From Nemertoderma westbladi (lineage: Eukaryota; Animalia; Xenacoelomorpha), in contig JAUCBJ010005691.1 of NCBI GenBank assembly GCA_032718475.1, positions 1 to 37,160 on the forward strand: DNA of 37,160 bases. Reading direction: 5' to 3'. Position 1 is the first letter of the stretch; each line of letters begins with the position of its first letter. Below, piece by piece: positions 559 to 27,411 of the stretch. The translations under genes and the position numbers were made by a program. The notes beneath the pieces are model-generated. The model did not search any database and was not told the origin of the DNA. It worked only from the letters and a program-made list of their open reading frames with translations.

Positions 559-1194
559 CGTGAAATATTAGAAGTTGTTGTTAAATATTCAAGTTTAATT
601 AATTTGCGATGTTACATAAGAAAGAAAATTATGGTAATACAGTAGCTTTGCTTACATAATTAAAATCCTCAATTTCTTTCAAAAATTTGCATTAAAAAAA
701 TAAATGTCAAATAATCTTCACTACTCTCTCACAGTACCTGTAAGATGCTTCACTAAGCAGAATATAATTACTATCATATAATAACTATTTGCATACTTGT
801 GTGTAAAGTAGCACTTTACAGTGTGATGATCCGAGTGTCTTTGTTACACGAACGAATGTTAGAGAGTGAGTGAAAATAAAGCCATGAGGATGAGAACAGT
901 AAAGTACTTTGCAACAAGTATGTATGTAGTTTTATTCCAAAATTTTAACATTACGAAATGATTGTACATATACAATATAAGTGATAGAAACTGCACAAAT
1001 TATATTAGTTGCTGTATAAATAAATGTAAAAATGACATAAATTATGTTATAAATAAGTTAGCTTATATTTATGGTGGCTTTTGGAGCCATGTTATAATAA
1101 TATAGCTAGGCCCTATTGGTTATTAATAGCTATACCCCGCCTACCGGTAGGTAATGCAGTAGGCCTATCTGGCTGTCAGGCAAATTTCCACCTA

Positions 1195-2994: not shown

Positions 2995-4887
2995 GATAGA
3001 TGGATAGAATTTATAGCAAGTCAAGTACTATGAGATAGATGGATAGAATTTATAGCAAGTCAAGTACTATGAGATAGATGGATAGAATTTATAGCAAGTC
3101 AAGTACTATGAGATAGATGGATAGAATTTATAGCAAGTCAAGTACTATGAGATAGATGGATAGAATTTATAGCAAGTCAAGTACTATGAGATAGATGGAT
3201 AGAATTTATAGCAAGTCAAGTACTATGAGATAGATGGATAGAATTTATAGCAAGTCAAGTACTATGAGATAGATGGATAGAATTTATAGCAAGTCAAGTA
3301 CTATGAGATAGATGGATAGAATTTATAGCAAGTCAAGTACTATGAGATAGATGGATAGAATTTATAGCAAGTCAAGTACTATGAGATAGATGGATAGAAT
3401 TTATAGCAAGTCAAGTACTATGAGATAGATGGATAGAATTTATAGCAAGTCAAGTACTATGAGATAGATGGATAGAATTTACAGCAAGTCAAGTACTATG
3501 AGATAGATGGATAGAATTTATAGCAAGTCAAGTACTATGAGATAGATGGATAGAATTTATAGCAAGTCAAGTACTATGAGATAGATGGATAGAATTTATA
3601 GCAAGTCAAGTACTATGAGATAGATGGATAGAATTTATAGCAAGTCAAGTACTATGAGATAGATGGATAGAATTTATAGCAAGTCAAGTACTATGAGATA
3701 GATGGATAGAATTTACAGCAAGTCAAGTACTATGAGATAGATGGATAGAATTTATAGCAAGTCAAGTACTATGAGATAGATGGATAGAATTTACAGCAAG
3801 TCAAGTACTATGAGATAGATGGATAGAATTTATAGCAAGTCAAGTACTATGAGATAGATGGATAGAATTTATAGCAAGTCAAGTACTATGAGATAGATGG
3901 ATAGAATTTATAGCAAGTCAAGTACTATGAGATAGATGGATAGAATTTATAGCAAGTCAAGTACTATGAGATAGATGGATAGAATTTACAGCAAGTCAAG
4001 TACTATGAGATAGATGGATAGAATTTATAGCAAGTCAAGTACTATGAGATAGATGGATAGAATTTATAGCAAGTCAAGTACTATGAGATAGATGGATAGA
4101 ATTTATAGCAAGTCAAATACTATGAGATAGATGGATAGAATTTATAGCAAGTCAAGTACTATGAGATAGATGGATAGAATTTATAGCAAGTCAAGTACTA
4201 TGAGATAGATGGATAGAATTTATAGCAAGTCAAGTACTATGAGATAGATGGATAGAATTTACAGCAAGTCAAGTACTATGAGATAGATGGATAGAATTTA
4301 TAGCAAGTCAAGTACTATGAGATAGATGGATAGAATTTACAGCAAGTCAAGTACTATGAGATAGATGGATAGAATTTATAGCAAGTCAAGTACTATGAGA
4401 TAGATGGATAGAATTTATAGCAAGTCAAGTACTATGAGATAGATGGATAGAATTTATAGCAAGTCAAGTACTATGAGATAGATGGATAGAATTTATAGCA
4501 AGTCAAATACTATGAGATAGATGGATAGAATTTACAGCAAGTCAAGTACTATGAGATAGATGGATAGAATTTATAGCAAGTCAAGTACTATAAGATAGAT
4601 GGATAGAATTTATAGCAAGTCAAGTACTATAAGATAGATGGATATAATTTATAGCAAGTCAAATACTATGAGATAGATGGATAGAATTTACAGCAAGTCA
4701 AGTACTATAAGATAGATGGATAGAATTTATAGCAAGTCAAATACTATGAGATAGATGGATAGAATTTACAGCAAGTCAAGTACTATGAGATAGATGGATA
4801 GAATTTATAGCAAGTCAAGTACTATAAGATAGATGGATAGAATTTATAGCAAGTCAAGTACTATAAGATAGATGGATATAATTTACA
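2995..4887. repeat. 39-bp minisatellite, about 48 copies
   Basis: Unit GATAGATGGATAGAATTTATAGCAAGTCAAGTACTATGA; variants tac/tat, aaat/aagt and taa/tga are more frequent toward the right end. Confidence 0.98.
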
Positions 4888-5409
4888 CCAGATACCAAAT
4901 ATATTCAATTTGGTTGAATCAATAAAGACTTATAAGGTTTTAAGTGTCTCTTGAACAATTTTTTTTTTATCGAATGAACTTTTGCCAATAACCGACGACA
5001 TCCATGACACTAAAGGTTGATTCTATATTTAGGATATTTAGGAAATATAACTTTCCTACATATAAGAAGAAAAAACTATCTTTAACATATTATTTTACTT
5101 TAATACAATTATTTGTAAATCTATAAGATATTTCGCAGCTACTGTACAAATATTCCCACGGAAGTTCAAATTGTAAAATTAAATCGCAAACAAGGAAAAA
5201 TACTTAATATTATTGTGGGTTGGATAAAAATTAAATTACTTAAAAATGTAATTTATTATTATTAATACCGCTATCCTGATTGAGTATTATGTTGCTGCTA
5301 TAATTTCCATGAGTTTTAATCGTGACTATAATATTAAGATACATGTGTTTAACCAATAATCAAATTTAATTAAAACTAATTCATTATAAGATAAGAAAAC
5401 AATAAGCAA

Positions 5410-6411
5410 TCACTTTAACCATGGCAACCAATAGCCACCCCTAAGCGATGGATCGGCGTTAGGGTCCATGGCTGGGTAGTCTGGAGGTATTGCAGTTCGG
5501 TTGTATTCCGCTAGGCGGTGTAACAGACGGTAAACAATATCCTGGTGGGAGTCCGCCACATTCCGGGTCTCAGTAGGGTCGTCTGCGAGGTTAAACAGGT
5601 ATAGAGGCTTCTTATTATCACCATGGTAACTAGACAATGAGTCGGGGATCCCATTGTGGTTACCAGAGAAACGTAGCTTGGATTCTCGTTCGTTACCAGG
5701 GTAACGGGGTTTGGATTCTCGTGTGTTACCATGGAAACGTAGCTTGGATTCTCGTTCGTTACCAGGGTAACTTAGCCTGGGTTCGGGGACCCAACTTCCG
5801 TTGCCAGGGAACCCAGTGAGTATCTTCCAATCGCCGACTCTCAACGCCGCCCTCACCGAGATATCGAAGGGATAGGAACCGTTGGGTAACCCGGGTAACC
5901 GGGTCAGCGGGTCGATGTTGTATAAATGTTCGGTTCGGGGCGACGTAGCATTCGCACTGATCGCATCCCAGACGTCGAAGCCGTCGATGCCGCTTGAGGA
6001 TGGCTTTCCTCCAGCCAATCGGACGAGAGTAGGTAGCCAATCAGTTACGTCTATAAGCCGCTTGTTGGTGTATCTCTTTAGCTGGAGGAGCGGACTGTTA
6101 ACGAAGCCAGGGACTCGGGTTCCTCCATCCCACAGCGTTCCTTTGCCGCCCCTTAGCGGCCAATTGTTGCCACTGATTTGAAATTGACCGCCGTTGTCAC
6201 TGGAGAAGACAATAACGGTGTTATCGAGAAAGTTTCTAGAATCGAGAGATTTTATTACGTCATTTATAGCGTCATCCATTGCGGTAGTCATAGCAGCGTA
6301 GTGACGTCGGCCTTTGTCTTTAATGAAACTGTATTGCTTTACATATTTATCGGGGACTTCCAATGGTGTGTGGACGGCTTGGAAAGGCAGATACAAGAAC
6401 ATCGGTTTATC
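5410..6411 (-). CDS. ARSB: Arylsulfatase B-like sulfatase, terminal exon
   Basis: Acceptor tgtatcatttag| at 6412, then DKPMFLYLPFQAVHTPLEVP...NTVIVFSSDNGG...NNWPLRGGKGTLWDGGTRVPGFV...DGFDVW...LFNLADDPTE...W.PW, all hallmark ARSB/I/J-family motifs. AATAAA on the minus strand at 5252-5257. The symbol is a family-level call. Confidence 0.93.
   Translation of the reverse strand, partial: DKPMFLYLPFQAVHTPLEVPDKYVKQYSFIKDKGRRHYAAMTTAMDDAINDVIKSLDSRNFLDNTVIVFSSDNGGQFQISGNNWPLRGGKGTLWDGGTRVPGFVNSPLLQLKRYTNKRLIDVTDWLPTLVRLAGGKPSSSGIDGFDVWDAISANATSPRTEHLYNIDPLTRLPGLPNGSYPFDISVRAALRVGDWKILTGFPGNGSWVPEPRLSYPGNERESKLRFHGNTRESKPRYPGNERESKLRFSGNHNGIPDSLSSYHGDNKKPLYLFNLADDPTETRNVADSHQDIVYRLLHRLAEYNRTAIPPDYPAMDPNADPSLRGGYWLPWLK
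5617..5813. repeat. 33-bp in-frame coding repeat built on palindromic GTTACCATGGTAAC-like cores
   Basis: Cores at 5659, 5692, 5725 and 5758 (33-bp period), plus 5617 and 5800; encodes YPGNERESKLR/FHGNTRESKPR/YPGNERESKLR/FSGN...YHGD. Confidence 0.9.
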
Positions 6412-9400
6412 CTAAATGATACAAAAACATTGGTTTATCCTAAATGATACAACATTGGTTTATCCTAAATGATACAACATTGGTTTATCCTAAATGATAC
6501 AACATTGGTTTATCCTAAATGATACAACAACATTGGTCTATCCTAAATGATACAACATTGGTTTATCCTAAATGATACAACATTGGTTTATCCTAAATGA
6601 TACAACAACATTGGTTTATCCTAAATGATACAACAACATTGGTTTATCCTAAATGATACAACAACATTGGTTTATCCTAAATGATACAAAAACATTGGTT
6701 TATCCTAAATGATACAACATTGGTTTATCCTAAATGATACAACATTGGTTTATCCTAAATGATACAACATTGGTTTATCCTAAATGATACAACATTGGTT
6801 TATCCTAAATGATACAACATTGGTTTATCCTAAATGATACAACATTGGTTTATCCTAAATGATACAACATTGGTTTATCCTAAATGATACAACATTGGTT
6901 TATCCTAAAAGATACAACAACATTGGTTTATCCTAAATGATACAAAATTGGTTTATCCTAAATGATACAACATTGGTTTATCCTAAATGATACAACATTG
7001 GTTTATCCTAAATGATACAACATTGGTTTATCCTAAATGATACAACATTGGTTTATCCTAAATGATACAACATTGGTTTATCCTAAAAGATACAACAACA
7101 TTGGTTTATCCTAAATGATACAACATTGGTATATCCTAAATGATACAACAACATTGGTTTATCCCAAATGATACAACATTGGTATATCCTAAATGATACA
7201 ACATTGGTTTATCCTAAATGATACTGTACAACATTGGTTTATCCTAAATGATACTAGAACATTGGTTTATCCTAAATGATACAACAACATTGGTTTATCC
7301 TAAAAGATACAACAACATTGGTTTATCCTAAATGATACAACATTGGTATATCCTAAATGATACAACATTGGTTTATCCTAAATGATACTACAACATTGGT
7401 TTATCCTAAATGATACAACAACATTGGTTTATCCTAAATGATACAACATTGGTTTATCCTAAATGATACAACATTGGTTTATCCTAAATGATACAACATT
7501 GGTTTATCCTAAATGATACAAAAACATTGGTTTATCCTAAATGATACAACAACATTGGTCTATCCTAAATGATACAATAACATTGGTCTATCCTAAATGA
7601 TACAACATTGGTTTATCCTAAATGATACAACATTGGTTTATCCTAAATGATACAACAACATTGGTTTATCCTAAATGATACAACAACATTGGTTTATCCT
7701 AAATGATACAACAACATTGGTTTATCCTAAATGATACAACATTGGTTTATCCTAAATGATACAACATTGGTTTATCCTAAATGATACAACATTGGTTTAT
7801 CCTAAATGATACAACAACATTGGTCTATCCTAAATGATACAACATTGGTTTATCCTAAATGATACAACATTGGTTTATCCTAAATGATACAACAACATTG
7901 GTTTATCCTAAATGATACAACAACATTGGTTTATCCTAAATGATACAACAACATTGGTTTATCCTAAATGATACAAAAACATTGGTTTATCCTAAATGAT
8001 ACAACATTGGTTTATCCTAAATGATACAACATTGGTTTATCCTAAATGATACAACATTGGTTTATCCTAAATGATACAACATTGGTTTATCCTAAATGAT
8101 ACAACATTGGTTTATCCTAAATGATACAACATTGGTTTATCCTAAATGATACAACATTGGTTTATCCTAAATGATACAACATTGGTTTATCCTAAAAGAT
8201 ACAACAACATTGGTTTATCCTAAATGATACAAAATTGGTTTATCCTAAATGATACAACATTGGTTTATCCTAAATGATACAACATTGGTTTATCCTAAAT
8301 GATACAACATTGGTTTATCCTAAATGATACAACATTGGTTTATCCTAAATGATACAACATTGGTTTATCCTAAAATATACAACAACATTGGTTTATCCTA
8401 AATGATACAACATTGGTATATCCTAAATGATACAACAACATTGGTTTATCCCAAATGATACAACATTGGTATATCCTAAATGATACAACATTGGTTTATC
8501 CTAAATGATACTGTACAACATTGGTTTATCCTAAATGATACTAGAACATTGGTTTATCCTAAATGATACAACAACATTGGTTTATCCTAAAAGATACAAC
8601 AACATTGGTTTATCCTAAATGATACAACATTGGTATATCCTAAATGATACAACATTGGTTTATCCTAAATGATACTACAACATTGGTTTATCCTAAATGA
8701 TACAACAACATTGGTTTATCCTAAATGATACAACATTGGTTTATCCTAAATGATACAACATTGGTTTATCCTAAATGATACAACATTGGTTTATCCTAAA
8801 TGATACAAAAACATTGGTTTATCCTAAATGATACAACAACATTGGTCTATCCTAAATGATACAATAACATTGGTCTATCCTAAATGATACAACATTGGTT
8901 TATCCTAAATGATACAACATTGGTTTATCCTAAATGATACAACAACATTGGTTTATCCTAAATGATACAACAACATTGGTTTATCCTAAATGATACAACA
9001 ACATTGGTTTATCCTAAATGATACAAAAACATTGGTTTATCCTAAATGATACAACATTGGTTTATCCTAAATGATACAACATTGGTTTATCCTAAATGAT
9101 ACAACATTGGTTTATCCTAAATGATACAACATTGGTTTATCCTAAATGATACAACATTGGTTTATCCTAAATGATACAACATTGGTTTATCCTAAATGAT
9201 ACAACATTGGTTTATCCTAAATGATACAACATTGGTTTATCCTAAATGATACAACAACATTGGTTTATCCTAAATGATACAACAACATTGGTTTATCCTA
9301 AATGATACAACAACATTGGTTTATCCTAAATGATACAAAAACATTGGTTTATCCTAAATGATACAACATTGGTTTATCCTAAATGATACAACATTGGTTT

Positions 9401-12400
9401 ATCCTAAATGATACAACATTGGTTTATCCTAAATGATACAACATTGGTTTATCCTAAATGATACAACATTGGTTTATCCTAAATGATACAACATTGGTTT
9501 ATCCTAAATGATACAACATTGGTTTATCCTAAATGATACAACATTGGTTTATCCTAAAAGATACAACAACATTGGTTTATCCTAAATGATACAAAATTGG
9601 TTTATCCTAAATGATACAACATTGGTTTATCCTAAATGATACAACATTGGTTTATCCTAAATGATACAACATTGGTTTATCCTAAATGATACAACATTGG
9701 TTTATCCTAAATGATACAACATTGGTTTATCCTAAAAGATACAACAACATTGGTTTATCCTAAATGATACAACATTGGTATATCCTAAATGATACAACAA
9801 CATTGGTTTATCCCAAATGATACAACATTGGTATATCCTAAATGATACAACATTGGTTTATCCTAAATGATACTGTACAACATTGGTTTATCCTAAATGA
9901 TACTAGAACATTGGTTTATCCTAAATGATACAACAACATTGGTTTATCCTAAAAGATACAACAACATTGGTTTATCCTAAATGATACAACATTGGTATAT
10001 CCTAAATGATACAACATTGGTTTATCCTAAATGATACTACAACATTGGTTTATCCTAAATGATACAACAACATTGGTTTATCCTAAATGATACAACATTG
10101 GTTTATCCTAAATGATACAACATTGGTTTATCCTAAATGATACAACATTGGTTTATCCTAAATGATACAAAAACATTGGTTTATCCTAAATGATACAACA
10201 ACATTGGTCTATCCTAAATGATACAATAACATTGGTCTATCCTAAATGATACAACATTGGTTTATCCTAAATGATACAACATTGGTTTATCCTAAATGAT
10301 ACAACAACATTGGTTTATCCTAAATGATACAACAACATTGGTTTATCCTAAATGATACAACAACATTGGTTTATCCTAAATGATACAACATTGGTTTATC
10401 CTAAATGATACAACATTGGTTTATCCTAAATGATACAACATTGGTTTATCCTAAATGATACAACAACATTGGTCTATCCTAAATGATACAACATTGGTTT
10501 ATCCTAAATGATACAACATTGGTTTATCCTAAATGATACAACAACATTGGTTTATCCTAAATGATACAACAACATTGGTTTATCCTAAATGATACAACAA
10601 CATTGGTTTATCCTAAATGATACAAAAACATTGGTTTATCCTAAATGATACAACATTGGTTTATCCTAAATGATACAACATTGGTTTATCCTAAATGATA
10701 CAACATTGGTTTATCCTAAATGATACAACATTGGTTTATCCTAAATGATACAACATTGGTTTATCCTAAATGATACAACATTGGTTTATCCTAAATGATA
10801 CAACATTGGTTTATCCTAAATGATACAACATTGGTTTATCCTAAAAGATACAACAACATTGGTTTATCCTAAATGATACAAAATTGGTTTATCCTAAATG
10901 ATACAACATTGGTTTATCCTAAATGATACAACATTGGTTTATCCTAAATGATACAACATTGGTTTATCCTAAATGATACAACATTGGTTTATCCTAAATG
11001 ATACAACATTGGTTTATCCTAAAATATACAACAACATTGGTTTATCCTAAATGATACAACATTGGTATATCCTAAATGATACAACAACATTGGTTTATCC
11101 CAAATGATACAACATTGGTATATCCTAAATGATACAACATTGGTTTATCCTAAATGATACTGTACAACATTGGTTTATCCTAAATGATACTAGAACATTG
11201 GTTTATCCTAAATGATACAACAACATTGGTTTATCCTAAAAGATACAACAACATTGGTTTATCCTAAATGATACAACATTGGTATATCCTAAATGATACA
11301 ACATTGGTTTATCCTAAATGATACTACAACATTGGTTTATCCTAAATGATACAACAACATTGGTTTATCCTAAATGATACAACATTGGTTTATCCTAAAT
11401 GATACAACATTGGTTTATCCTAAATGATACAACATTGGTTTATCCTAAATGATACAAAAACATTGGTTTATCCTAAATGATACAACAACATTGGTCTATC
11501 CTAAATGATACAATAACATTGGTCTATCCTAAATGATACAACATTGGTTTATCCTAAATGATACAACATTGGTTTATCCTAAATGATACAACAACATTGG
11601 TTTATCCTAAATGATACAACAACATTGGTTTATCCTAAATGATACAACAACATTGGTTTATCCTAAATGATACAAAAACATTGGTTTATCCTAAATGATA
11701 CAACATTGGTTTATCCTAAATGATACAACATTGGTTTATCCTAAATGATACAACATTGGTTTATCCTAAATGATACAACATTGGTTTATCCTAAATGATA
11801 CAACATTGGTTTATCCTAAATGATACAACATTGGTTTATCCTAAATGATACAACATTGGTTTATCCTAAAAGATACAACAACATTGGTTTATCCTAAATG
11901 ATACAACATTGGTTTATCCTAAATGATACAACATTGGTTTATCCTAAATGATACAACATTGGTTTATCCTAAATGATACAACATTGGTTTATCCTAAATG
12001 ATACAACATTGGTTTATCCTAAAAGATACAACAACATTGGTTTATCCTAAATGATACAACATTGGTATATCCTAAATGATACAACAACATTGGTTTATCC
12101 TAAATGATACAACATTGGTATATCCTAAATGATACAACATTGGTTTATCCTAAATGATACTGTACAACATTGGTTTATCCTAAATGATACTACAATATTG
12201 GTTTATCCTAAATGATACAACAACATTGGTTTATCATAAAAGATACAACAACATTGGTTTATCCTAAATGATACAAAATTGGTATATCCTAAATGATACA
12301 ACATTGGTCTATCCTAAATGATACTACAACATTGGTTTATCCTAAATGATACAACAACATTGGTTTATCCTAAATGATACAACATTGGTTTATCCTAAAT

Positions 12401-15400
12401 GATACAACATTGGTTTATCCTAAATGATACAACATTGGTTTATCCTAAATGATACAAAAACATTGGTTTATCCTAAATGATACAACAACATTGGTCTATC
12501 CTAAATGATACAATAATGGTTTATCCTAAATGATACAACATTGGTTTATCCTAAATGATACAACAACATTGGTTTATCCTAAATGATACAACATTGGTCT
12601 ATCCTAAATGATACAACATTGGTTTATCCTAAATGATACAACATTGGTTTATCCTAAATGATACTGTACAACATTGGTTTATCCTAAATGATACAACAAC
12701 ATTGGTCTATCCTAAATGATACAACAACATTGGTCTATCCTAAATGATACAACATTGTTTATCCTAAATGATACAACATTGGTTTATCCTAAATGATACA
12801 ACATTGGTTTATCCTAAATGATACAACATTGGTTTATCCTAAATGATACAACAACATTGGTTTATCCTAAATGATACAACATTGGTTTATCCTAAATGAT
12901 AGAACAACATTGGTTTATCCTAAATGATACAACATTGGTTTATCCTAAATGATAGAACATTGGTTTATCCTAAATGATACAACATTGGTTTATCCTAAAT
13001 GATACAACAACATTGGTTTATCCTAAATGATAGAACATTGGTTTATCCTAAATGATACAACATTGGTTTATCCTAAATGATAGAACATTGGTTTATCCTA
13101 AATGATAGAACATTGGTTTATCCTAAATGATACAACAACATTGGTTTATCCTAAATGATACAACATTGGTTTATCCTAAATGATACAACATTGGTTTATC
13201 CTAAATGATAGAACATTGGTTTATCCTAAATGATACATCATTGGTTTATCCTAAATGATACAACAACATTGGTTTATCCTAAATGATAGAACATTGGTTT
13301 ATCCTAAATGATACAACATTGGTTTATCCTAAATGATAGAACATTGGTTTATCCTAAATGATAGAACATTGGTTTATCCTAAATGATACAACATTGGTTT
13401 ATCCTAAATGATACAACATTGGTTTATCCTAAATGATACAACATTAGTTTATCCTAAATGATAGAACAACATTGGTTTATCCTAAATGATAGAACATTGG
13501 TTTATCCTAAATGATAGAACATTGGTTTATCCTAAATGATAGAACATTGGTTTATCCTAAATGATACAACATTGGTTTATCCTAAATGATAGAACAACAT
13601 TGGTTTATCCTAAATGATACAACATTGGTTTATCCTAAATGATACAACAACATTGGTTTATCCTAAATGATAGAACATTGGTTTATCCTAAATGATACAA
13701 CATTGGTTTATCCTAAATGATAGAACATTGGTTTATCCTAAATGATACAACAACATTGGTTTATCCTAAATGATACAACATTGGTTTATCCTAAATGATA
13801 GAACATTGGTTTATCCTAAATGATACTGTACAACATTGGTTTATCCTAAATGATACAACATTGGTTTATCCTGAATGATACAACAACATTGGTTTATCCT
13901 AAATGATACAACATTGGTTTATCCTAAATGATACAACAACATTGGTTTATCCTAAATGATACAACAACATTGGTTTATCCTAAATGATACAACAACATTG
14001 GTTTATCCTAAATGATACAACATTGGTTTATCCTAAATGATACAACATTGGTTTATCCTAAATGATACAACAACATTGGTTTATCCTAAATGATACAACA
14101 TTGGTTTATCCTAAATGATACAACATTAGTATATCCTAAATGATACAACATTGGTATATCCTAAATGATACAACATTGGTTTATCCTAAATGATACAACA
14201 TTGGTTTATCCTAAATGATACAACATTGGTTTATCCTAAATGATACAACATTGGTTTATAACTAAATGATACAACATTGGTTTATCCTAAATGATACAAT
14301 ATTGGTTTATCCTAAATGATACAACAACATTGGTTTATCCTAAATGATACAACATTGGTTTATCCTAAATGATACAACAACATTGGTTTATCCTAAATGA
14401 TACAACAACATTAGTTTATCCTAAATGATACAACATTGGTTTATCCTAAATGATACAACAACATTGGTTTATCCTAAATGATACAACATTGGTTTATCCT
14501 AAATGATACAACATTGGTTTATAACTAAATGATACAACATTGGTATATCCCAAATGATACAACATTGGTATATCCTAAATGATACAACATTGGTTTATCC
14601 TAAATGATACAACATTGGTTTATCCTAAATGATACAACATTGGTTTATCCTAAATGATACAACATTGGTTTATAACTAAATGATACAACATTGGTTTATC
14701 CTAAATGATACAATAACATTGGTATATCCTAAATGATACAACGTTGGTTAATCCTAAATGATACAACATTGGTTTATCCTAAATGATACAACATTGGTTT
14801 ATCCTAAATGATACAACAACATTGGTTTATCCTAAATGATACAACAACATTGGTTTATCCTAAATGATACAACAACATTGGTTTATCCTAAATGATACAA
14901 CAACATTGGTTTATCCTAAATGATACAACATTGGTTTATCCTAAATGATACAACATTGGTTTATCCTGAATGATACAACAACATTGGTTTATCCTAAATG
15001 ATACAACATTGGTTTATCCTAAATGATACAACAACATTGGTTTATCCTAAATGATACAACAACATTGGTTTATCCTAAATGATACAACAACATTGGTTTA
15101 TCCTAAATGATACAACATTGGTTTATCCTAAATGATACAACATTGGTTTATCCTAAATGATACAACAACATTGGTTTATCCTAAATGATACAACATTGGT
15201 TTATCCTAAATGATACAACATTAGTATATCCTAAATGATACAACATTGGTATATCCTAAATGATACAACATTGGTTTATCCTAAATGATACAACATTGGT
15301 TTATCCTAAATGATACAACATTGGTTTATCCTAAATGATACAACATTGGTTTATCCTAAATGATACAACATTGGTTTATCCTAAATGATACAACATTGGT

Positions 15401-18400
15401 TTATCCTAAATGATACAACAACATTGGTTTATCCTAAATGATACAACATTGGTTTATCCTAAAATATACAACATTGGTTTATCCTAAATGATACAACATT
15501 GGTTTATCCTAAATGATACAACATTGGTTTATCCTAAATGATACAACAACATTGGTTTATCCTAAATGATACAACAACATTGGTTTATCCTAAATGATAC
15601 AACAACATTGGTTTATCCTAAATGATACAACATTGGTTTATCCTAAATGATACAACAACATTGGTTTATCCTAAATGATACAACAACATTGGTTTATCCT
15701 AAAATATACAACATTGGTATATCCCAAATGATACAACATTGGTTTATCCTAAATGATACAACATTGGTTTATCCTAAATGATACAACAACATTGGTTTAT
15801 CCTAAATGATACAACAACATTAGTTTATCCTAAATGATACAACATTGGTTTATCCTAAATGATACAACAACATTGGTTTATCCTAAATGATACAACATTG
15901 GTTTATCCTAAAAGATACAACAACATTCGTTTATCCTAAATGATACAACATTTGTATATCCCAAATGATACAACATTGGTATATCCTAAATGATACAACA
16001 TTGGTTTATCCTAAATGATACAACATTGGTTTATCCTAAATGATACAACATTGGTTTATCCTAAATGATACAACATTGGTTTATAACTAAATGATACAAC
16101 ATTGGTTTATCCTAAATGATACAACAACATTGGTTTATCCTAAATGATACAACATTGGTTAATCCTAAATGATACAACATTGGTTTATCCTAAATGATAC
16201 AACATTGGTTTATCCTAAATGATACAACAACATTGGTTTATCCTAAATGATACAACAACATTGGTTTATCCTAAATGATACAATAACATTGGTTTATCCT
16301 AAATGATACAACATTGGTTTATCCTAAATGATACAACATTGGTTTATCCTAAATGATACAATAATGGTTTATCCTAAATGATACAACATTGGTCTATCCT
16401 AAATGATACAACATCGGTCTATCCTAAATGATACAAAAACATTGGTTTATCCTAAATGATAGAACATTGGTTTATCCTAAATGATACAACATTGGTTTAT
16501 CCTAAATGATACAATAATGGTTTATCCTAAATGATACAACATTGGTCTATCCTAAATGATACAACATCGGTCTATCCTAAATGATACAAAAACATTGGTT
16601 TATCCTAAATGATACAACATTGGTTTATCCTAAATGATACAACATTGGTTTATCCTAAATGATACAACAACATTGGTTTATCCTAAATGATACTGTACAA
16701 CATTGGTTTATCCTAAATGATACAACAACATTGGTCTATCCTAAATGATACAACATTGGTTTATCCTAAATGATACAACATTGGTTTATCCTAAATGATA
16801 CAACATTGGTTTATCCTGAATGATACAACATTGGTTTATCCTAAATGATACAACATTGATTTATCCTAAATGATACAACATTGGTTTATCCTAAATGATA
16901 CAACAACATTGGTTTATCCTAAATGATACAACATTGGTTTATCCTAAATGATACAACATTGGTTTATCCTAAATGATACAACATTGGTTTATCCTAAATG
17001 ATACAACATTGGTTTATCCTAAATGATACAACATTGGTTTATCCTAAATGATACAACATTGGTTTATCCTAAATGATACAACAACATTGGTTTATCCTAA
17101 ATGATACAACATTGGTTTATCCTAAATGATACAACAACATTGGTTTATCCTAAATGATACAAAAACATTGGTTTATCCTAAATGATACAACATTGGTTTA
17201 TCCTAAATGATACAACATTGGTTTATCCTAAATGATACAACAACATTGGTTTATCCTAAATTATACAACATTGGTTTATCCTAAATGATACAACAACATT
17301 GGTCTATCCTAAATGATACAACATTGGTTTATCCTGAATGATACAACAACATTGGTTTATCCTAAATGATACAACAACATTGGTTTATCCTAAATGATAC
17401 AAAAACATTGGTTTATCCTAAATGATACAAAAACATTGGTTTATCCTAAATGATACAAAAACATTGGTTTATCCTAAATGATACAAAAACATTGGTTTAT
17501 CCTAAATGATACAACATTGGTTTATCCTAAATGATACAACATTGGTTTATCCTAAATGATACAACATTGGTTTATCCTAAATGATACAACATTGGTTTAT
17601 CCTAAATGATACAACAACATTGGTTTATCCTAAATGATACAACATTGGTTTATCCTAAATGATACAACAACATTGGTCTATCCTAAATGATACAACATTG
17701 GTTTATCCTGAATGATACAACAACATTGGTTTATCCTAAATGATACAACAACATTGGTTTATCCTAAATGATACAAAAACATTGGTTTATCCTAAATGAT
17801 ACAAAAACATTGGTTTATCCTAAATGATACAACATTGGTTTATCCTAAATGATACAACATTGGTTTATCCTAAATGATACAACAACATTGGTTTATCCTA
17901 AATGATACAACATTGGTTTATCCTAAATGATACAACATTGGTTTATCCTAAATGATACAACAACATTGGTTTATCCTAAATGATACAACATTGGTTTATC
18001 CTAAATGATACAACAACATTGGTCTATCCTAAATGATACAACATTGGTTTATCCTGAATGATACAACAACATTGGTTTATCCTAAATGATACAACAACAT
18101 TGGTTTATCCTAAATGATACAAAAACATTGGTTTATCCTAAATGATACAAAAACATTGGTTTATCCTAAATGATACAACATTGGTTTATCCTAAATGATA
18201 CAACATTGGTTTATCCTAAATGATACAACAACATTGGTTTATCCTAAATGATACAAAATTGGTTTATCCTAAATGATACAACAACATTGGTCTATCCTAA
18301 ATGATACAACATTGGTTTATCCTGAATGATACAACAACATTGGTTTATCCTAAATGATACTGTACAACATTGGTTTATCCTAAATGAAACAACAACATTG

Positions 18401-21400
18401 GTTTATCCTAAATGATACAACATTGGTTTATCCTAAATGATACTGTACAACATTGGTTTATCCTAAATGATACAACAACATTGGTTTATCCTAAATGATA
18501 CAAAAACGTTGGTTTATCCTAAATGATACAAAAACATTGGTTTATCCTAAATGATACAAAAACATTGGTTTATCCTAAATGATACAAAAACATTGGTTTA
18601 TCCTAAATGATACAACATTGGTTTATCCTAAATGATACAACATTGGTTTATCCTAAATGATACAACATTGGTTTATCCTAAATGATACAACATTGGTTTA
18701 TCCTAAATGATACAACAACATTGGTTTATCCTAAATGATACAACATTGGTTTATCCTAAATGATACAACAACATTGGTCTATCCTAAATGATACAACATT
18801 GGTTTATCCTGAATGATACAACAACATTGGTTTATCCTAAATGATACAACAACATTGGTTTATCCTAAATGATACAAAAACATTGGTTTATCCTAAATGA
18901 TACAAAAACATTGGTTTATCCTAAATGATACAACATTGGTTTATCCTAAATGATACAACATTGGTTTATCCTAAATGATACAACAACATTGGTTTATCCT
19001 AAATGATACAACATTGGTTTATCCTAAATGATACAACATTGGTTTATCCTAAATGATACAACAACATTGGTTTATCCTAAATGATACAACATTGGTTTAT
19101 CCTAAATGATACAACAACATTGGTCTATCCTAAATGATACAACATTGGTTTATCCTGAATGATACAACAACATTGGTTTATCCTAAATGATACAACAACA
19201 TTGGTTTATCCTAAATGATACAAAAACATTGGTTTATCCTAAATGATACAAAAACATTGGTTTATCCTAAATGATACAAAATTGGTTTATCCTAAATGAT
19301 ACAACAACATTGGTCTATCGTAAATGATACAACATTGGTTTATCCTGAATGATACAACAACATTGGTTTATCCTAAATGATACTGTACAACATTGGTTTA
19401 TCCTAAATGAAACAACAACATTGGTTTATCCTAAATGATACAACATTGGTTTATCCTAAATGATACTGTACAACATTGGTTTATCCTAAATGATACAACA
19501 TTGGTTTATCCTAAATGATACAACAACATTGGTTTATCCTAAATGATACAACATTGGTTTATCTAAATGATACAACATTGGTTTATCCTAAATGATACAA
19601 CAACATTGGTTTATCGTAAATGATACAACAACATTGGTTTATCCTAAAAGATACAAGAACATTCCTTTATCCTAAATGATACAACATTGGTATATGCTAA
19701 ATGATACAACATTGGTATATCCTAAATGATACAACATTGGTTTATCCTAAATGATACAACAACATTGGTTTATCCTAAATGATACAACAACATTGGTTTA
19801 TCCTAAATGATACTGTACAACATTAGTTTATAGTTTATCCTAAATGATACAACAACATTGGTCTATCCTAAATGATACAACATTGGTTTATCCTAAATAA
19901 TACAACATTGGTTTATCCTAAATGATACAACATTGGTTTATCCTAAATGATACAACATTGGTTAATACTAAATGATACAACAACATTGGTTTATCCTAAA
20001 AGATACAAGAACATTCCTTTATCCTAAATGATACAACATTGGTATATCCTAAATGATACAACATTGGTATATACTAAATGATACAACATTGGTTTATCCT
20101 AAATGATACAACATTGGTTTATCCTAAATGATACAACATTGGTTTATCCTAAATGATACAACAACATTGGTTTATCCTAAATGATACAACATTGGTTTAT
20201 CCTAAATGATACAACAACATTGGTTTATCCTAAATGATACAACATTGGTTTATCCTAAAAGATACAACAACATTCGTTTATCCTAAATGATACAACATTG
20301 GTATATCCTAAAAGATACAACATTGGTTTATCCTAAATGATACAACATTGGTTTATCCTAAATGATACAACATTGGTTTATCCTAAATGATACAACAACA
20401 TTGGTCTATCCTAAATGATACAACATTGGTTTATCCTAAATGATACAACATTGGTTTATCCTAAATGATACAACATTGGTTTATCCTAAATGATACAACA
20501 TTGGTCTATCCTAAATGATACAACAACATTGATTTATCCTAAATGATACAATAATGGTTTATCCTAAATGATACAACATTGGTTTATCCTAAATGATACA
20601 ACAACATTGGTTTATCCTAAATGATACAACAACATTGGTTTATCCTAAATGATACAACAACATTGGTTTATCCTAAATGATACAACAACATTGGTTTATC
20701 CTAAATGATACAACATTGGTTTATCCTAAATGATACAACATTGGTTTATCATAAATGATACAACAACATTGGTTTATCCTAAATGATACAACATTGGTTT
20801 ATCCTAAATGATACAACAACATTGGTTTATCCTAAATGATACAACATTGGTTTATCATAAATGATACAACAACATTGGTTTATCCTAAATGATACAATAA
20901 TGGTTTATCCTAAATGATACAACATTGGTTTATCCTAAATGATACAACAACATTGGTTTATCCTAAATGATACAACATTGGTTTATCCTAAATGATACTG
21001 TACAACATTGGTTTATCCTAAATGATACAACAACATTGGTTTATCCTAAATGATACAACAACGTTGGTTTATCCTAAATGATACAAAAACATTGGTTTAT
21101 CCTAAATGATACAAAAACATTGGTTTATCCTAAATGATACAAAAACATTGGTTTATCCTAAATGATACAACATTGGTTTATCCTAAATGATACAACATTG
21201 GTTTATCCTAAATGATACAACATTGGTTTATCCTAAATGATACAACATTGGTTTATCCTAAATGATACAACAACATTGGTTTATCCTAAATGATACAACA
21301 TTGGTTTATCCTAAATGATACAACAACATTGGTCTATCCTAAATGATACAACATTGGTTTATCCTGAATGATACAACAACATTGGTTTATCCTAAATGAT

Positions 21401-24330
21401 ACAACAACATTGGTTTATCCTAAATGATACAAAAACATTGGTTTATCCTAAATGATACAAAAACATTGGTTTATCCTAAATGATACAACATTGGTTTATC
21501 CTAAATGATACAACATTGGTTTATCCTAAATGATACAACAACATTGGTTTATCCTAAATGATACAACATTGGTTTATCCTAAATGATACAACATTGGTTT
21601 ATCCTAAATGATACAACAACATTGGTTTATCCTAAATGATACAACATTGGTTTATCCTAAATGATACAACAACATTGGTCTATCCTAAATGATACAACAT
21701 TGGTTTATCCTGAATGATACAACAACATTGGTTTATCCTAAATGATACAACAACATTGGTTTATCCTAAATGATACAAAAACATTGGTTTATCCTAAATG
21801 ATACAAAAACATTGGTTTATCCTAAATGATACAACATTGGTTTATCCTAAATGATACAACATTGGTTTATCCTAAATGATACAACAACATTGGTTTATCC
21901 TAAATGATACAAAATTGGTTTATCCTAAATGATACAACAACATTGGTCTATCGTAAATGATACAACATTGGTTTATCCTGAATGATACAACAACATTGGT
22001 TTATCCTAAATGATACTGTACAACATTGGTTTATCCTAAATGAAACAACAACATTGGTTTATCCTAAATGATACAACATTGGTTTATCCTAAATGATACT
22101 GTACAACATTGGTTTATCCTAAATGATACAACATTGGTTTATCCTAAATGATACAACAACATTGGTTTATCCTAAATGATACAACATTGGTTTATCTAAA
22201 TGATACAACATTGGTTTATCCTAAATGATACAACAACATTGGTTTATCGTAAATGATACAACAACATTGGTTTATCCTAAAAGATACAAGAACATTCCTT
22301 TATCCTAAATGATACAACATTGGTATATGCTAAATGATACAACATTGGTATATCCTAAATGATACAACATTGGTTTATCCTAAATGATACAACAACATTG
22401 GTTTATCCTAAATGATACAACAACATTGGTTTATCCTAAATGATACTGTACAACATTAGTTTATAGTTTATCCTAAATGATACAACAACATTGGTCTATC
22501 CTAAATGATACAACATTGGTTTATCCTAAATAATACAACATTGGTTTATCCTAAATGATACAACATTGGTTTATCCTAAATGATACAACATTGGTTAATA
22601 CTAAATGATACAACAACATTGGTTTATCCTAAAAGATACAAGAACATTCCTTTATCCTAAATGATACAACATTGGTATATCCTAAATGATACAACATTGG
22701 TATATCCTAAATGATACAACATTGGTTTATCCTAAATGATACAACATTGGTTTATCCTAAATGATACAACATTGGTTTATCCTAAATGATACAACAACAT
22801 TGGTTTATCCTAAATGATACAACATTGGTTTATCCTAAATGATACAACAACATTGGTTTATCCTAAATGATACAACATTGGTTTATCCTAAAAGATACAA
22901 CAACATTCGTTTATCCTAAATGATACAACATTGGTATATCCTAAAAGATACAACATTGGTTTATCCTAAATGATACAACATTGGTTTATCCTAAATGATA
23001 CAACATTGGTTTATCCTAAATGATACAACAACATTGGTCTATCCTAAATGATACAACATTGGTTTATCCTAAATGATACAACATTGGTTTATCCTAAATG
23101 ATACAACATTGGTTTATCCTAAATGATACAACATTGGTCTATCCTAAATGATACAACAACATTGATTTATCCTAAATGATACAATAATGGTTTATCCTAA
23201 ATGATACAACATTGGTTTATCCTAAATGATACAACAACATTGGTTTATCCTAAATGATACAACAACATTGGTTTATCCTAAATGATACAACAACATTGGT
23301 TTATCCTAAATGATACAACAACATTGGTTTATCCTAAATGATACAACATTGGTTTATCCTAAATGATACAACATTGGTTTATCATAAATGATACAACAAC
23401 ATTGGTTTATCCTAAATGATACAACATTGGTTTATCCTAAATGATACAACAACATTGGTTTATCCTAAATGATACAACATTGGTTTATCATAAATGATAC
23501 AACAACATTGGTTTATCCTAAATGATACAACATTGGTTTATCCTAAATGATACAACATTGGTTTATCATAAATGATACAACAACATTGGTTTATCCTAAA
23601 TGATACAATAATGGTTTATCCTAAATGATACAACATTGGTTTATCCTAAATGATACAACAACATTGGTTTATCCTAAATGATACAACATTGGTTTATCCT
23701 AAATGATACAACATTGGTTTACCATAAATGATACAACAACATTGGTTTATCCTAAATGATACAACATTGGTTTATCATAAATGATACAACAATATTGGTT
23801 TATCCTAAATGATACAACATTGGTTTATCCTAAATGATACAACATTGGTTTATCCTAAATGATACAACATTGGTTTATCCTAAATGATACAACATTGGTT
23901 TATCCTAAATGATACAACATTGGTTTATCCTAAATGATACAACATTGGTTTATCCTAAATGATACAACATTGGTTTATCCTAAATGATACAACATTGGTT
24001 TATCCTAAATGATACAACAACATTGGTTTATCCTAAATGATACAACATTGGTTTATCCTAAATGATACAACATTGGTTTATCCTAAATGATACAACATTG
24101 GTTTATCCTAAATGATACAACAACATTGGTTTATCCTAAATGATTATGGACATTAGTTTATCCTAAATGATACAACAACATTGGTTTATCCTAAATGATA
24201 CAACATTGGTTTATCCTAAATGATACAACATTGGTTTATCCTAAATGATACAACATTGGTTTATCCTAAATGATACAACAACATTGGTTTATCCTAAATG
24301 ATTATGGACATTAGTTTATCCTAAATGATT
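6412..24330. repeat. Intronic 25/28-bp satellite, about 17.9 kb (roughly 680-700 units, estimated from length), derived from the ARSB-like splice acceptor/exon junction
   Basis: Plus-strand unit ACATTGGTTTATCCTAAATGATACA(ACA). On the gene strand it reads GATAAACCAATG(TTG)TTGTATCATTTAG, matching exon start GATAAACCGATGTTCTTGTATC plus acceptor ATTTAG. Confidence 0.97.
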
Positions 24331-24356
24331 ATGGACATATAGTTTTCAACATTTAC

Positions 24357-24471
24357 CTTTGGGTGTTTTTCAATGAGATTTTTCGCTTTTTCGACAAAGA
24401 GTGTCGTTGAATAAGTGCCATTCTCGCTCCCTACAGGACGCCCGTTCTCATTTAAATCTATTCCAGAACTC
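24357..24471 (-). CDS. ARSB: Arylsulfatase B-like internal exon (115 nt)
   Basis: tattttcag| SSGIDLNENGRPVGSENGTYSTTLFVEKAKNLIEKHPK |gtaaat. YST.LF...A..LI..H motif; phase 0 joins DKPMFLYL. Confidence 0.92.
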
Positions 24472-24592: not shown

Positions 24593-24661
24593 GCGAACAG
24601 GGATGTTACATGGGTGAAATAATCTGAGTAGGCATTGAAGAAACCGTAGAAATAATCGAAT
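24593..24661 (-). CDS. ARSB: Arylsulfatase B-like internal exon (69 nt)
   Basis: attctccag| (G)FDYFYGFFNAYSDYFTHVTSLF(A) |gtaagt. RGFD.FYG....DY.TH motif; phases are consistent with both neighbours. Confidence 0.92.
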
Positions 24662-24745
24662 CTGGAGAATAATGAAATATTTATCACAACCAATATATTA
24701 ATTAATTGTTTGAAGTAGTTCCCCGCCTTGAGCACCGTAGTATAC

Positions 24746-25787
24746 ATAATAAAGGAAGGATAAAGTGATCTTTAGGTGCCGCTGTAATTATTATATAAAT
24801 GCCAGATATTTCAACCCAAAATTGTAAATGTGGACAAATACAATTAAACAGGCCTTCTTCAGTGGCTCTGGTACCTAATGAACCTAACTACGGAGCAACA
24901 CCAGAACAAATAGTACCGGTATCATATAAAATACTGCACATACAGTATGTGCAGGACCAATTACAACGTTTGTGTACGTGTTATTAAATGCTAACTACTG
25001 TATAAATATCAAAGATCAAAAGGGGGTTGCTAGCTAGAATTTTGTGTGCGTGTATTGGAATGTAAAAGAAATGCTAACTACTGAACAAATACGAAAATAT
25101 ATGAAAGAATTGCTAACTACTGTATAAATTGCACCAACTTTAGGTTAGCATCCTTTGTCGTGGGGCCCACTGTACTGGCGAGGTAGAGGAATTACGGAAA
25201 ATTACATAGGGGAGAGCATGGGGGCGGATTAGGTACCGCATGATGAAACACGGCAACTCAGTACGCAATGTCAACCGGAAGGATGCGATAGGGGAACACT
25301 TCCTAGATAAACATCCAAGGTGCAAGAACTACTAGGGACCTTTCAGAATTATTTTAAGATACAAATGCAGGAACTGGGCGGACCGGAAAATCAGGGAATT
25401 ATTTCATATATTTTCATATTTTATACAGTAGTTAGCATTTCTTTTATATTACAATACACGTACACAAAATTCTAGCTAGCAACCCCCTTTTGATCTTTGA
25501 TATTTATACAGTAGTTAGCATTTAATAACACGTACACAAACGTTGTAATTGATCCTGCACATACTGTATGTGCAGTATTTTATATGACACCGGTACTATT
25601 TGTTCTGCTGTTGCTCGGTCCGGTCGTGTTGTAGAGTTTCCGTAGTTAGGTTCATTAGGTACCAGAGCCACTGACGAAGGCCTGTTTAATTGTGTTTGTC
25701 CACATTTACAATTTTTGGTTGAAATATCTGGCATTTGTATAATAATTACAGCGGCACCTAAATATCACTTTATCCTTCCTTTATTAT
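24746..25787. mobile_element. Foldback/MITE-like element with about 365-390 bp inverted arms, in an ARSB-like intron
   Basis: 24746-25111 is the near reverse complement of 25397-25787 (ATAATAAAGGAAGGATAAAGTGAT... / ...ATCACTTTATCCTTCCTTTATTAT); about 285 bp spacer; TA-rich flanks; no transposase. Confidence 0.85.
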
Positions 25788-25933
25788 ATATTAATTAAGG
25801 AAACTCTTTTAGAGGGAAGGTTACATTATTCTAACCAAAACAACGGACGATAGGCAATAACACAAAGTTACAGGTTTACTAGTAATTTTATTTTCATCTC
25901 GTCTACAATAACTAACTTTGAAACTAAACTAAC

Positions 25934-26114
25934 CCCCGTTGGTTTGGCAGACACTCCTCCCTACAGAAGCCTTGGTGCCATTTCCCAACCATGTAGGTAG
26001 AATACCCCGCCTCTTTGAGGTATTGTGGTAGAGTTTTAACCTGCAGAGGCAGACAGGCGGGCTGAGTAGGTAGGATAACGAGGTGTTGTAACCCCAGGTG
26101 GATAGGATGTCTTC
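25934..26114 (-). CDS. ARSB: Arylsulfatase B-like internal exon (181 nt)
   Basis: ctttctcgtttaatag| (G)[60 protein letters not shown] |gttagt. Sulfatase signature GY.T.MVGKWH. Confidence 0.93.
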
Positions 26115-26236
26115 CTATTAAACGAGAAAGATAATAATTCAACTCTTAACAAGTTGATTATACAGTATGATTGTTTTTAATTAACCTGCTGGATAAACTT
26201 ACAACTGTGCAGAATTCAGCCAGTTGTAGAATTGTC

Positions 26237-27407
26237 TTAGGGGGGGGGTAGGGGGTAGCGTATTTTCTGACCAAAAATATCCTATCTGATGCAGAATTTC
26301 ATGCTGAATCCAAATATGAAAACCGTTTTCCCATATCTTGCTTAGTTTTCGAGATATTTGGGGTAGAAGATACTGGCTCCGATATATCGCGATATCGGTA
26401 AAGGAGATGAAGTTTGGGGTTTGCATTCAATTTCTGCCATTTTCTGTGCTCAGTGATGCTAATTGGATGTCACCACGAGAAAGAGCACAAAATTTTAATT
26501 AAGAATTGTATTTTTTCATGATTATTGGATCTACTGATCAGTTTATAAGACAACTTCAAGTCTCCGGAATGAAGACGGGACTCGAATAAGTGACTCTATG
26601 GTCTTTGCGGGATTACACGGAATAGACTTATCGGTCATCGGAGATCTTCAAAATGTATAATCTCCAGTTCTAGTGGTCGTACGGAGTTCGTTTTAGGTTC
26701 ATTCGAAAGCTCTTTTCTTAGAGATCAAAGTTTCTATTTGGTTTGGCAAACTCTTGAAAGCTGCCTGAGCAATCACAACTTGAACAAAATTTGCAAGGCA
26801 TATTTTACCCAAATTCATGTTATGTTGCTTCACAACCATTTTGTCTTAAATCAAATGGTAACTTTGTTCTCTAAGAAAAGAGCTTTCGAATGAGCCTAAA
26901 ACGAACTTCGTACGACCAATAGAACTGGAGATTATACATTTTGAAGATCTCCGATGACCGATAAGTCTATTCCGTGTAATCCCGCAAAGACCGCAGAGTC
27001 GCTTATTCGAGTCCTGTCTTCATTCCGGAGACTTGATGTTGTCTTATAAACAGACCTGCAGGTCCAATAATCATAAAAAAATACCTTCTCAATTAAAATT
27101 TTGTGCTCTTTCTCGTGGAGACATCCAATTGGCACCACTGAGCACAGAAATTTGCAGAAATTAAATGCAAAATATATCATAAATGATAAATAATAAACGT
27201 AAATAATATCGCCTTTACCGATATCGCGATATATCGGAGCCAGTATCTTCTATCCCAGCTATCTCGAAAACAAAGCAAGATATGGGAAAACGGTTTCCAT
27301 ATTTGGATTCAGCATGAAATTCTGCATCAGATAGGATATGATAAAAATTCGTCTTTTTGGTCAGAAAATGCGCTACCCCCCCCACCCCCCCCCCCCCCCC
27401 CCCTTAA
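26237..27407. mobile_element. Foldback non-autonomous DNA transposon, about 500-bp arms, G/C-run termini, TTAA on the right flank (Kolobok-like ends)
   Basis: GGGG...GTAGCGTATTTTCTGACCAAAAA versus TTTTTGGTCAGAAAATGCGCTACCCC...CCCTTAA. Arms pair from about 26240-26750 with 26840-27403; the left flank is degenerate (TTAG). Confidence 0.85.
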
Positions 27408-27411
27408 TGTT

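What the first reader, a model, noticed from the sequence alone, without database searches (positions are those of the whole stretch)
6380..24360. An 18-kb intron built from about 700 tandem copies of its own 3' splice site plus exon start
Seen: on the gene strand each unit is ...TTGTATCATTTAG|GATAAACCAATG, the same context as the true acceptor at 6412 (...TTGTATCATTTAG|GATAAACCGATG). The 28-bp unit matches the first 22 nt of the exon with 2 mismatches. Only 36 nt separate the donor (24356) from the first AG copy (24322-24321), so the ancestral intron may have been tiny. Splicing to the common decoy units gives an immediate stop: DKPMLYHLG* (25 bp), DKPMLLYHLG* (28 bp), DKPMLYSII* (30 bp), DKLMSIII* (first copy). 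Only the most distal acceptor gives a sulfatase, yet the terminal exon is an intact ORF. Inference: either the spliceosome skips hundreds of near-identical acceptors (terminal-exon definition or silencing), or array length tunes expression through nonproductive splicing, or the gene was recently silenced. An ATC microhomology shared by intron end and exon suggests slippage as the origin.
Basis: partly seen in the sequence, partly recalled or inferred. Interest (0 to 1): 0.85.

Follow-up and report, generated by a model that had tools for sequence, protein, structure and literature searches.

The report
681-copy splice-acceptor "mirage" in sulfatase intron
In an animal sulfatase gene, the last 6 bases of an intron and the first 19-22 bases of the next exon are repeated 681 times to make an 18-kb intron; this is a very large example of a repeat type already known from lancelets and human genes, and the cell likely still splices to the last copy, which was not tested here.

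Summary
A 17,945-nt intron (minus strand, 24356-6412) is a 36-nt leader plus 681 units of mostly 25 or 28 bp; 660 end in AG, and of the 731 AGs only the last opens the 333-codon arylsulfatase B/I/J-like exon. It is a known kind: a 'mirage' minisatellite (lancelet globin, Adh3, TnC, PGBD5; human CBS 844ins68 and F7 IVS7), where splicing normally uses the exon-adjacent copy. The scan already noted many such arrays in this genome (up to about 1,300 copies) and in other animals. Best reading: a neutral, slippage-born array with splicing likely at the last AG (0.6). The four exons are in frame and keep five ARSB active-site residues. Limits: no RNA run was listed, so no junction was read; the catalytic 5' exon is not in the window; one 2,649-bp block is duplicated exactly and may be assembly over-expansion. 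One twist: the unit carries only 6-9 nt of intron, so the working acceptor's pyrimidine tract and branch region would be exon-derived. Nothing supports the expression-tuning idea.

The parts
25934..26114 (-). Exon A of an arylsulfatase B/I/J-like gene (181 nt; holds the GKWH motif, ARSB Lys145/His147). Its 5' edge could lie a few bases further in; an upstream exon is needed.
   Evidence: Pfam Sulfatase E 1.1e-7; tblastn to homolog residues about 91-154; AG/GT edges and frame
24593..24661 (-). Exon B (69 nt)
   Evidence: weak tblastn hit in order, 41-47% identity; AG/GT edges keep the frame
24357..24471 (-). Exon C (115 nt), ends in phase 0 at the donor of the giant intron
   Evidence: tblastn E 6e-6 to 8e-4 in the hits shown; donor matches 8 of 9 consensus positions
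24321..24356 (-). 36-nt leader: donor GT to first AG; likely what is left of the original intron
   Evidence: shuffle tests against the unit not significant
6412..24320 (-). Mirage array: 681 units, each 19-22 nt of exon start plus the 6-nt intron end; 659 decoy AG ends plus the terminal one
6568..11865 (-). Exact tandem duplication of a 2,649-bp (101-unit) block inside the array; recent unequal crossover or assembly over-expansion
   Evidence: 102 identical units in a row against 6-10 in 30 shuffles; 0 mismatches
18252..23517 (-). Older 2.6-kb higher-order duplication with 5 mismatches in 2,555 aligned bases and internal indels
6412..6439 (-). Last unit, the minority type with a run of five T; ends in the only AG that opens the sulfatase frame; 36 other units are identical to it
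5410..6411 (-). Terminal coding exon D, 333 codons plus stop; keeps residues aligned to ARSB His242, Asp300 and Lys318
   Evidence: Pfam Sulfatase E 3.3e-24; PDB 1FSU E 9.6e-76; 41-56% identity to the 120 listed homologs
5252..5257 (-). AATAAA, candidate poly(A) signal 1,154 nt after the terminal acceptor; none in the array
   Evidence: use not shown

Best explanation
The intron is a 'mirage' minisatellite, 681 tandem copies of the gene's own intron end and exon start, likely born by slippage at a 3-base microhomology and likely tolerated because splicing goes mainly to the last copy, the only one followed by a full exon. Shown: the unit anatomy, the stops after every decoy, nested block duplications, and an open four-exon frame. 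Inferred step 1: a first 28-bp duplication between the ATC before the intron's last 6 nt and the ATC at exon +20 to +22; a 3-bp loss gave the 25-bp unit. Inferred step 2: growth by unequal crossover or conversion in blocks of about 1.3 and 2.6 kb. Inferred step 3: acceptor choice from the exon side (exon sequence beyond +22, the GC step from 28% to 41-51%, and the poly(A) signal 1.15 kb downstream), since nothing on the intron side singles out the last AG. Decoys stay silent or leak a little into short, stop-containing products. The array has no function.
For: Anatomy matches the published definition of mirages, including a 3' example (BflGb6: intron 3' end plus exon 5' part), said not to disturb splicing (PMC3087553 passages; PMC3902484 passages). 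Human CBS 844ins68 duplicates an intron 7/exon 8 junction and the distal copy is strongly favoured (PMC2630376 passages); human F7 uses only the exon-adjacent one of 5-9 identical donors (PMC1557585 abstract and Discussion). An exon-centric proximity rule is described for long introns (PMC9225289 passages) and terminal exon definition couples the last acceptor to 3' end formation (PMC3737548, start of abstract only). The four exons give 1,367 nt with 0 internal stops and keep residues matching ARSB Lys145, His147, His242, Asp300 and Lys318 (list from PMC6282714 passage). Both differences between exon and last unit are synonymous (chance 0.02-0.06; noticed after the fact). A neutral-decay simulation leaves the frame open in 8% of runs at the array's 1.6% internal divergence if indels are 0.1 per substitution, 43% without indels. 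Decoy AGs are not being purged: 7 and 12 variant copies at the A and G against a mean of 9.5 over 24 positions. The array has no AATAAA/ATTAAA, no GT[AG]AG and no AGGT. In local folding the exon-side 22 nt are more open at the true site than at 168 of 173 sampled decoys.
Against: No junction was read for this gene. The 5' exon with the ADD and CxPxR motifs was not found in the 11 kb upstream, which holds intronless SRP19 and SRP9 genes on the same strand, so the gene may be truncated. The first AG keeps the native leader and lies 36 nt from the donor, where the intron-centric proximity rule favours it; the same paper finds that exon definition reduces the upstream 3' site preference and does not report it reversed in the passages seen. 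The true acceptor is not special: 36 other units are identical, 95 of 661 AG ends have as many pyrimidines, and the gene's other three acceptors have more (12-14 against 11). Its AG is less open than 152 of 173 sampled decoys, and 17 of 173 are as open upstream. The simulation assumes the array mutates at the neutral rate; only 30 distinct variants underlie the 1.6%, so that figure is inflated by block copying. Published precedents have 2-9 copies, not hundreds.
Confidence: 0.6

Rival explanations
1. The gene is dead or dying: the native 36-nt intron still splices to the first AG (stop after 8 codons), or the gene had already lost its 5' exon, and the array expanded freely in a pseudogene too young to have decayed.
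For: 5' catalytic exon not found in the window. First AG is closest to the donor and keeps native intron sequence; proximity rule. Without indels the frame survives neutral decay in 23-78% of runs at 0.5-3% divergence. Sulfatases of this type form multi-copy families in invertebrates (several per species among the hits).
Against: 1,367 nt open, all splice edges canonical, five active-site residues kept; both exon-versus-unit differences synonymous; the array has had time for 59 unit types and nested duplications. A nUnAy motif is missing from the usual branch distance in the leader (only at -12 and -9), and 36 nt is shorter than most animal introns (recalled). The window ends 11 kb upstream, so a distant first exon is possible.
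Confidence: 0.23
2. The array is a regulator: decoy use rises with copy number, so array length sets the share of productive mRNA and is under selection.
For: Every decoy product is non-productive whatever the unit length; 97% of units keep the AG. An unreviewed note on a donor array in this genome reports splicing from an internal variant copy (e1-10614089; not checked).
Against: The stop in every frame follows from the unit's own sequence and needs no selection. AG positions vary as much as other positions. Lancelet mirages were reported not to give aberrant mRNAs. No expression or population data.
Confidence: 0.08
3. The intron itself is repeat-born: the 36-nt leader is a decayed early unit and the donor arose from a unit start (intron gain through a mirage, as proposed in PMC3087553).
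For: The first 10 nt share a 7-mer with the unit (147 of 20,000 shuffles; best of four tests); two 27-bp units near the 5' end are hybrids of unit head and leader.
Against: The three longer comparisons are not significant. The unit's last 6 nt match the leader's end, not the end of exon C, so an acceptor existed first. Human ARSB has a phase-0 intron two codons away (c.691-1; alignment).
Confidence: 0.05
4. The array is largely an assembly artefact and the real intron has only a few units.
For: One 2,649-bp block is duplicated with no mismatch; no reads or second assembly could be checked.
Against: 59 unit types, 30 distinct point variants, position-specific variant blocks and an imperfect 2.6-kb duplication (5 mismatches plus indels) cannot come from collapsing or looping a few units. 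At most the exact block (about 101 units) is suspect.
Confidence: 0.04

Closest known systems
Amphioxus 'mirage' minisatellites (globins BflGb6/BflGb9, Adh3, troponin C, PGBD5). Seen: passages of PMC3087553 and PMC3902484; the original Adh3 paper was not read
   Same: Head-to-tail copies of an exon-intron boundary lying in the intron; BflGb6 copies the intron 3' end plus exon start as here; most copies keep the splice dinucleotide; unit size within the 10-160 bp range given; end units differ from the middle.
   Different: 681 copies and 18 kb against 2-7 copies in the globin and PGBD5 cases seen; 99.8% of the intron is array; only 6 (up to 9) nt of intron are in the unit, so the branch and pyrimidine region in front of the working AG is copied exon; normal splicing and length polymorphism are shown there and untested here.
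Human CBS c.844_845ins68. Seen: passages of PMC2630376; Romano 2002 seen only as a reference title
   Same: Duplicated intron end plus exon start; the distal, exon-complete copy is used and the mRNA is normal.
   Different: Two copies 68 bp apart; here 661 candidate sites over 18 kb.
Human F7 IVS7 37-bp VNTR. Seen: abstract and Discussion of PMC1557585
   Same: Minisatellite whose edge unit spans the exon-intron boundary; identical pseudo-sites are functional but unused; the exon-adjacent copy wins.
   Different: Donor side, where the authentic site is transcribed first; here the authentic acceptor is transcribed last, after 660 decoys, so a first-come rule works against it.
Arylsulfatase B / I / J family (PF00884; human ARSB, PDB 1FSU)
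   Same: Host gene; exon order and five active-site residues match.
   Different: No close ortholog (best 48% over full length; at most 55%); catalytic 5' exon not in the window; exon D carries an in-frame 33-bp repeat insert.

Membership tests
Mirage minisatellite | Tandem repeats whose unit spans an exon-intron boundary of the host gene | tested here: met
   Unit = last 6 nt of intron plus first 19-22 nt of exon D; 2 mismatches in 22
Mirage minisatellite | Copies lie in the intron with the authentic junction as the edge unit | tested here: met
   Only the last of 731 AGs opens the long frame
Mirage minisatellite | Many copies keep the AG/GT signal | tested here: met
   660 of 681 units end in AG
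Mirage minisatellite | Minisatellite turnover: concerted evolution within the cluster, divergent edge units | tested here: met
   Block duplications of 21-102 identical units against 6-10 in 30 shuffles; leader-hybrid units only at the 5' end; only 2 units carry the exon base at +9
Mirage minisatellite | Normal splicing of the host mRNA is kept | not testable with these tools
   No RNA run was listed for this gene, so no reads could be laid
Mirage minisatellite | Copy number varies between haplotypes or cells | not testable with these tools
   No whole genome or second haplotype is held
Arylsulfatase B/I/J (S1 sulfatase) | Sulfatase domain PF00884 | tested here: met
   86 and 32 bits against a cut-off of 25
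Arylsulfatase B/I/J (S1 sulfatase) | Active-site Lys145, His147, His242, Asp300, Lys318 (ARSB numbering, PMC6282714) | tested here: met
   GKWH in exon A (placed by motif); His, Asp and Lys identical in the 1FSU alignment
Arylsulfatase B/I/J (S1 sulfatase) | Asp53/Asp54 and Cys91-x-Pro93-x-Arg95 (formylglycine site) | tested here: inconclusive
   Not found in six frames of the window by tblastn with 12 homologs or a 98-sequence profile (best E 1.7); may lie beyond 37160

The most novel reading that the evidence does not exclude
The gene is live and its spliceosome passes 660 near-identical acceptors over 18 kb, including the native one 36 nt from the donor, to use a last acceptor whose branch point and pyrimidine tract are built from recycled exon sequence. 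Acceptor choice in this animal would then be made almost wholly from the exon and poly(A) side, with splicing held back until the terminal exon is finished, and array length could set enzyme output.
Probability: 0.3. Interest if true: 0.6.

Novelty: new member of a known kind. Interest (0 to 1): 0.3.

Why it matters
As one locus it is an oddity of a known type. Its value is as a natural test of 3' splice-site choice: 36 decoys are identical to the true site over the whole 28-nt unit, so only exon sequence beyond +22 and the 3' end can tell them apart, and the true site is transcribed last. One RNA data set would measure how well terminal exon definition overrides proximity and first-come selection at a scale far beyond the 2-9 copies studied in human and lancelet genes. 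The larger open question, why this genome amplifies so many splice junctions, is a genome-level one that this window cannot answer.

Tried and rejected
RNA evidence: the one run search, with window 5300-6411, listed no RNA holder, so no reads were laid; this is no evidence on expression. No whole genome is held. An exact 30-nt exon D pattern found 0 stretches in metagenome contigs. Ortholog hunt: best 48% over the full length among 120 listed of 509, at most 55% among the best 150; SRP19 best 62% among 44; so no dN/dS and no taxon beyond 'animal'. 5' exon: tblastn with 12 homologs (output partly cut from view) and a profile from the 98 of 120 hits that have the CxPxR motif found nothing; the look of the 34-bp array's YSPHPR frame like CSPSR was not among the profile hits shown and was dropped. 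Leader as a decayed unit: three of four shuffle tests not significant. Structure as the discriminator: each 25-bp unit folds a weak hairpin (-1.9 kcal/mol), but 173 of the 660 decoys sampled show only a modest difference from the true site and the AG itself goes the wrong way. Selection to knock out decoy AGs: not seen. Selection against poly(A) signals (GATAAA is one change from AATAAA; 0 G-to-A against 5 other changes at that base): too few events to test. Recursive splicing: no AGGT in the intron. The other three large arrays (39, 34, 21 bp) score 8-20 against seven exon edges of this gene, against 48 for the mirage: not mirages of this gene. Eleven short homologs from Logan contigs begin near the same region and lack the upstream KWH motif; they say nothing firm about this intron position. 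Rfam: 0 matches. Literature: eight answered searches; 'mirage + minisatellite + splice' gave 3 papers, and none of the listings described an array of hundreds of acceptor copies; the library lacks most subscription papers, and no supplements were read (the BflGb6 and PGBD5 alignments are in supplements).
Full report
Observation. On the minus strand a donor at 24356 follows exon C and the next in-frame sulfatase sequence starts at 6411, giving an intron of 17,945 nt. Tandem Repeats Finder reports 681.9 copies of period 25. My parse gives a 36-nt leader and 681 units: 395 of 25 bp, 260 of 28, 15 of 30 and 11 others, in 59 types; 660 end in AG. Units fill 99.8% of the intron. Each is the first 19-22 nt of exon D followed by the last 6 nt of the intron; the 28-bp types differ from the exon at +9 and +15. 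Of 731 AGs, 730 stop within 36 codons in exon C's frame and the last gives 333 codons.

Host gene. Exon D and exon A hit Pfam Sulfatase; the listed homologs are arylsulfatase B/I/J-like proteins of molluscs, fishes, lancelets and others at 41-56%, and human ARSB is the best solved structure (E 9.6e-76). Four exons (26114-25934, 24661-24593, 24471-24357, 6411-5410) have AG/GT edges and read through 1,367 nt with no internal stop. Residues matching ARSB Lys145, His147, His242, Asp300 and Lys318 are kept (list from a passage of PMC6282714). The part with Asp53/Asp54 and Cys91-Arg95 was not found anywhere in the window; the 11 kb upstream holds two satellites, foldback and DDE transposon pieces and intronless SRP19 and SRP9 genes. 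Either the first exon lies beyond 37160 with those genes nested, or the gene is truncated. The organism is an animal with no close relative in the protein collections.

Is the array real? The unit order has higher-order structure: identical runs of 21-102 units against 6-10 in 30 shuffles, with periods near 49-52 and 99-101 units. A 5' block of 2.6 kb differs from its neighbour by 5 mismatches and indels, whereas a 3' block of 2,649 bp is duplicated exactly. This is the pattern of unequal crossover (established for minisatellites; PMC3087553 passage). The exact block could be an assembly over-expansion, which would leave about 580 units. An artefact from a few units is not credible.

Origin (inferred). 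The leader ends in ATC plus the 6-nt intron end, and exon D has ATC at +20 to +22, so one slippage gives the 28-bp unit. Two 27-bp units at positions 1 and 7 join a unit head to the leader's tail, a second slippage. The leader is not significantly similar to the exon-derived part in three of four tests, so it is most simply native intron; whether 36 nt was the whole intron cannot be told. The gene's other introns are 121 nt and 1,272 nt, of which about 1,050 is a foldback insert. Human ARSB has a phase-0 intron two codons downstream.

How splicing could work (inferred). Nothing upstream singles out the last AG: 36 other units are identical to the last one, 95 of 661 AG ends have as many pyrimidines, and the same nUnAy motif lies in the preceding unit for true and decoy sites. 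Because only 6-9 nt of intron were copied, the tract and branch region before the true AG are duplicated exon sequence. Folding gives a small edge downstream (5 of 173 sampled decoys as open) but not at the AG (152 of 173 as open). The difference must lie in exon D beyond +22, the GC step (28% to 41% over the first 200 nt, 51% over the exon) and the AATAAA 1,154 nt on. The array offers no poly(A) hexamer, no AGGT and only one donor-like variant (23722, 6 of 9 consensus matches) plus six non-GTR sites at the same score, so decoys have little to be defined against. For long introns an exon-centric proximity rule is published, though for 3' sites the passages seen say the upstream preference is reduced, not reversed (PMC9225289).

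Alive or dead? For: open frame, kept residues, both exon-versus-last-unit differences synonymous (chance 0.02-0.06, post hoc, direction unknown), and a decay simulation in which the frame survives 8% of runs at 1.6% divergence with an assumed indel ratio of 0.1 (43% without indels). Against: the missing 5' exon, the native first AG next to the donor, and the softness of the simulation. No RNA could be examined. I put live-and-tolerated at 0.6, dead at 0.23, length-tuned regulation at 0.08.

Comparison with what is known. [quoted passage not shown] Human CBS 844ins68 is a two-copy acceptor case resolved at the distal copy (PMC2630376 passages), and F7 IVS7 is the donor counterpart (PMC1557585 abstract and Discussion). 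This array meets the four structural features I could test; normal splicing and length polymorphism were not testable. Both lancelet papers came up in my own search, but the name 'mirage' reached me through earlier scan notes, which list many such arrays in this genome, including a 600-copy acceptor array in a 37-kb intron and a 1,300-copy donor array, several with RNA said to use the exon-adjacent copy. Those notes are unreviewed, I could not check their RNA claims, and they are not counted as evidence.

Verdict. Real, striking in size, but a new member of a known kind that this scan has met repeatedly. I found no paper on an array of hundreds of acceptor copies in the searches listed, within a library that lacks most subscription papers. 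Interest 0.3; about 0.6 if RNA shows clean use of the last acceptor with an exon-derived branch point.

Noticed in passing
window 33172-34167 (-): Adjacent intronless SRP9-like (about 33922-34155) and SRP19 (33172-33621) genes on the same strand, upstream of the sulfatase exons; possibly nested in its first intron. Two SRP subunit genes side by side without introns is unusual (recalled).
   Followed up: partly
window 26115-37160: No 5' sulfatase exon with the ADD and CxPxR motifs found upstream of exon A.
   Followed up: yes
window 5659-5784 (-): In-frame 33-bp repeat (3.8 copies, 79% matches) inside exon D, in a loop that is variable among homologs.
   Followed up: partly
window 2995-4885, 27414-29212, 30380-31619: Three more minisatellites (39 bp x 48.5, 34 bp x 52.9, 21 bp x 58.9). 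Not copies of this gene's exon edges. The 34-bp unit has a pyrimidine run ending in CAG on the minus strand and the 21-bp unit a CAG/GTA on the plus strand, with no exon found beside them.
   Followed up: partly
window 24742-25791 and 26240-27409: Two palindromic foldback (MITE-like) inserts of about 1.05 and 1.17 kb, arms 88-96% complementary; the first makes up most of intron A-B.
   Followed up: partly
window about 34900-36770 (-): Broken DDE_1 (pogo/tigger-like) transposase in several frames.
   Followed up: no
window 364-567 (-): Isolated MORN-repeat fragment next to a reverse-transcriptase-like piece (123-356; resemblance recalled, not tested).
   Followed up: no
window 24356 / ARSB c.690-691: The giant intron sits two codons upstream of human ARSB intron 3, both in phase 0: a possible near-intron pair or slide.
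   Followed up: partly
window 23722 (-): One array unit has mutated into a donor-like site resembling the true donor; a candidate for a cryptic mini-exon.
   Followed up: partly
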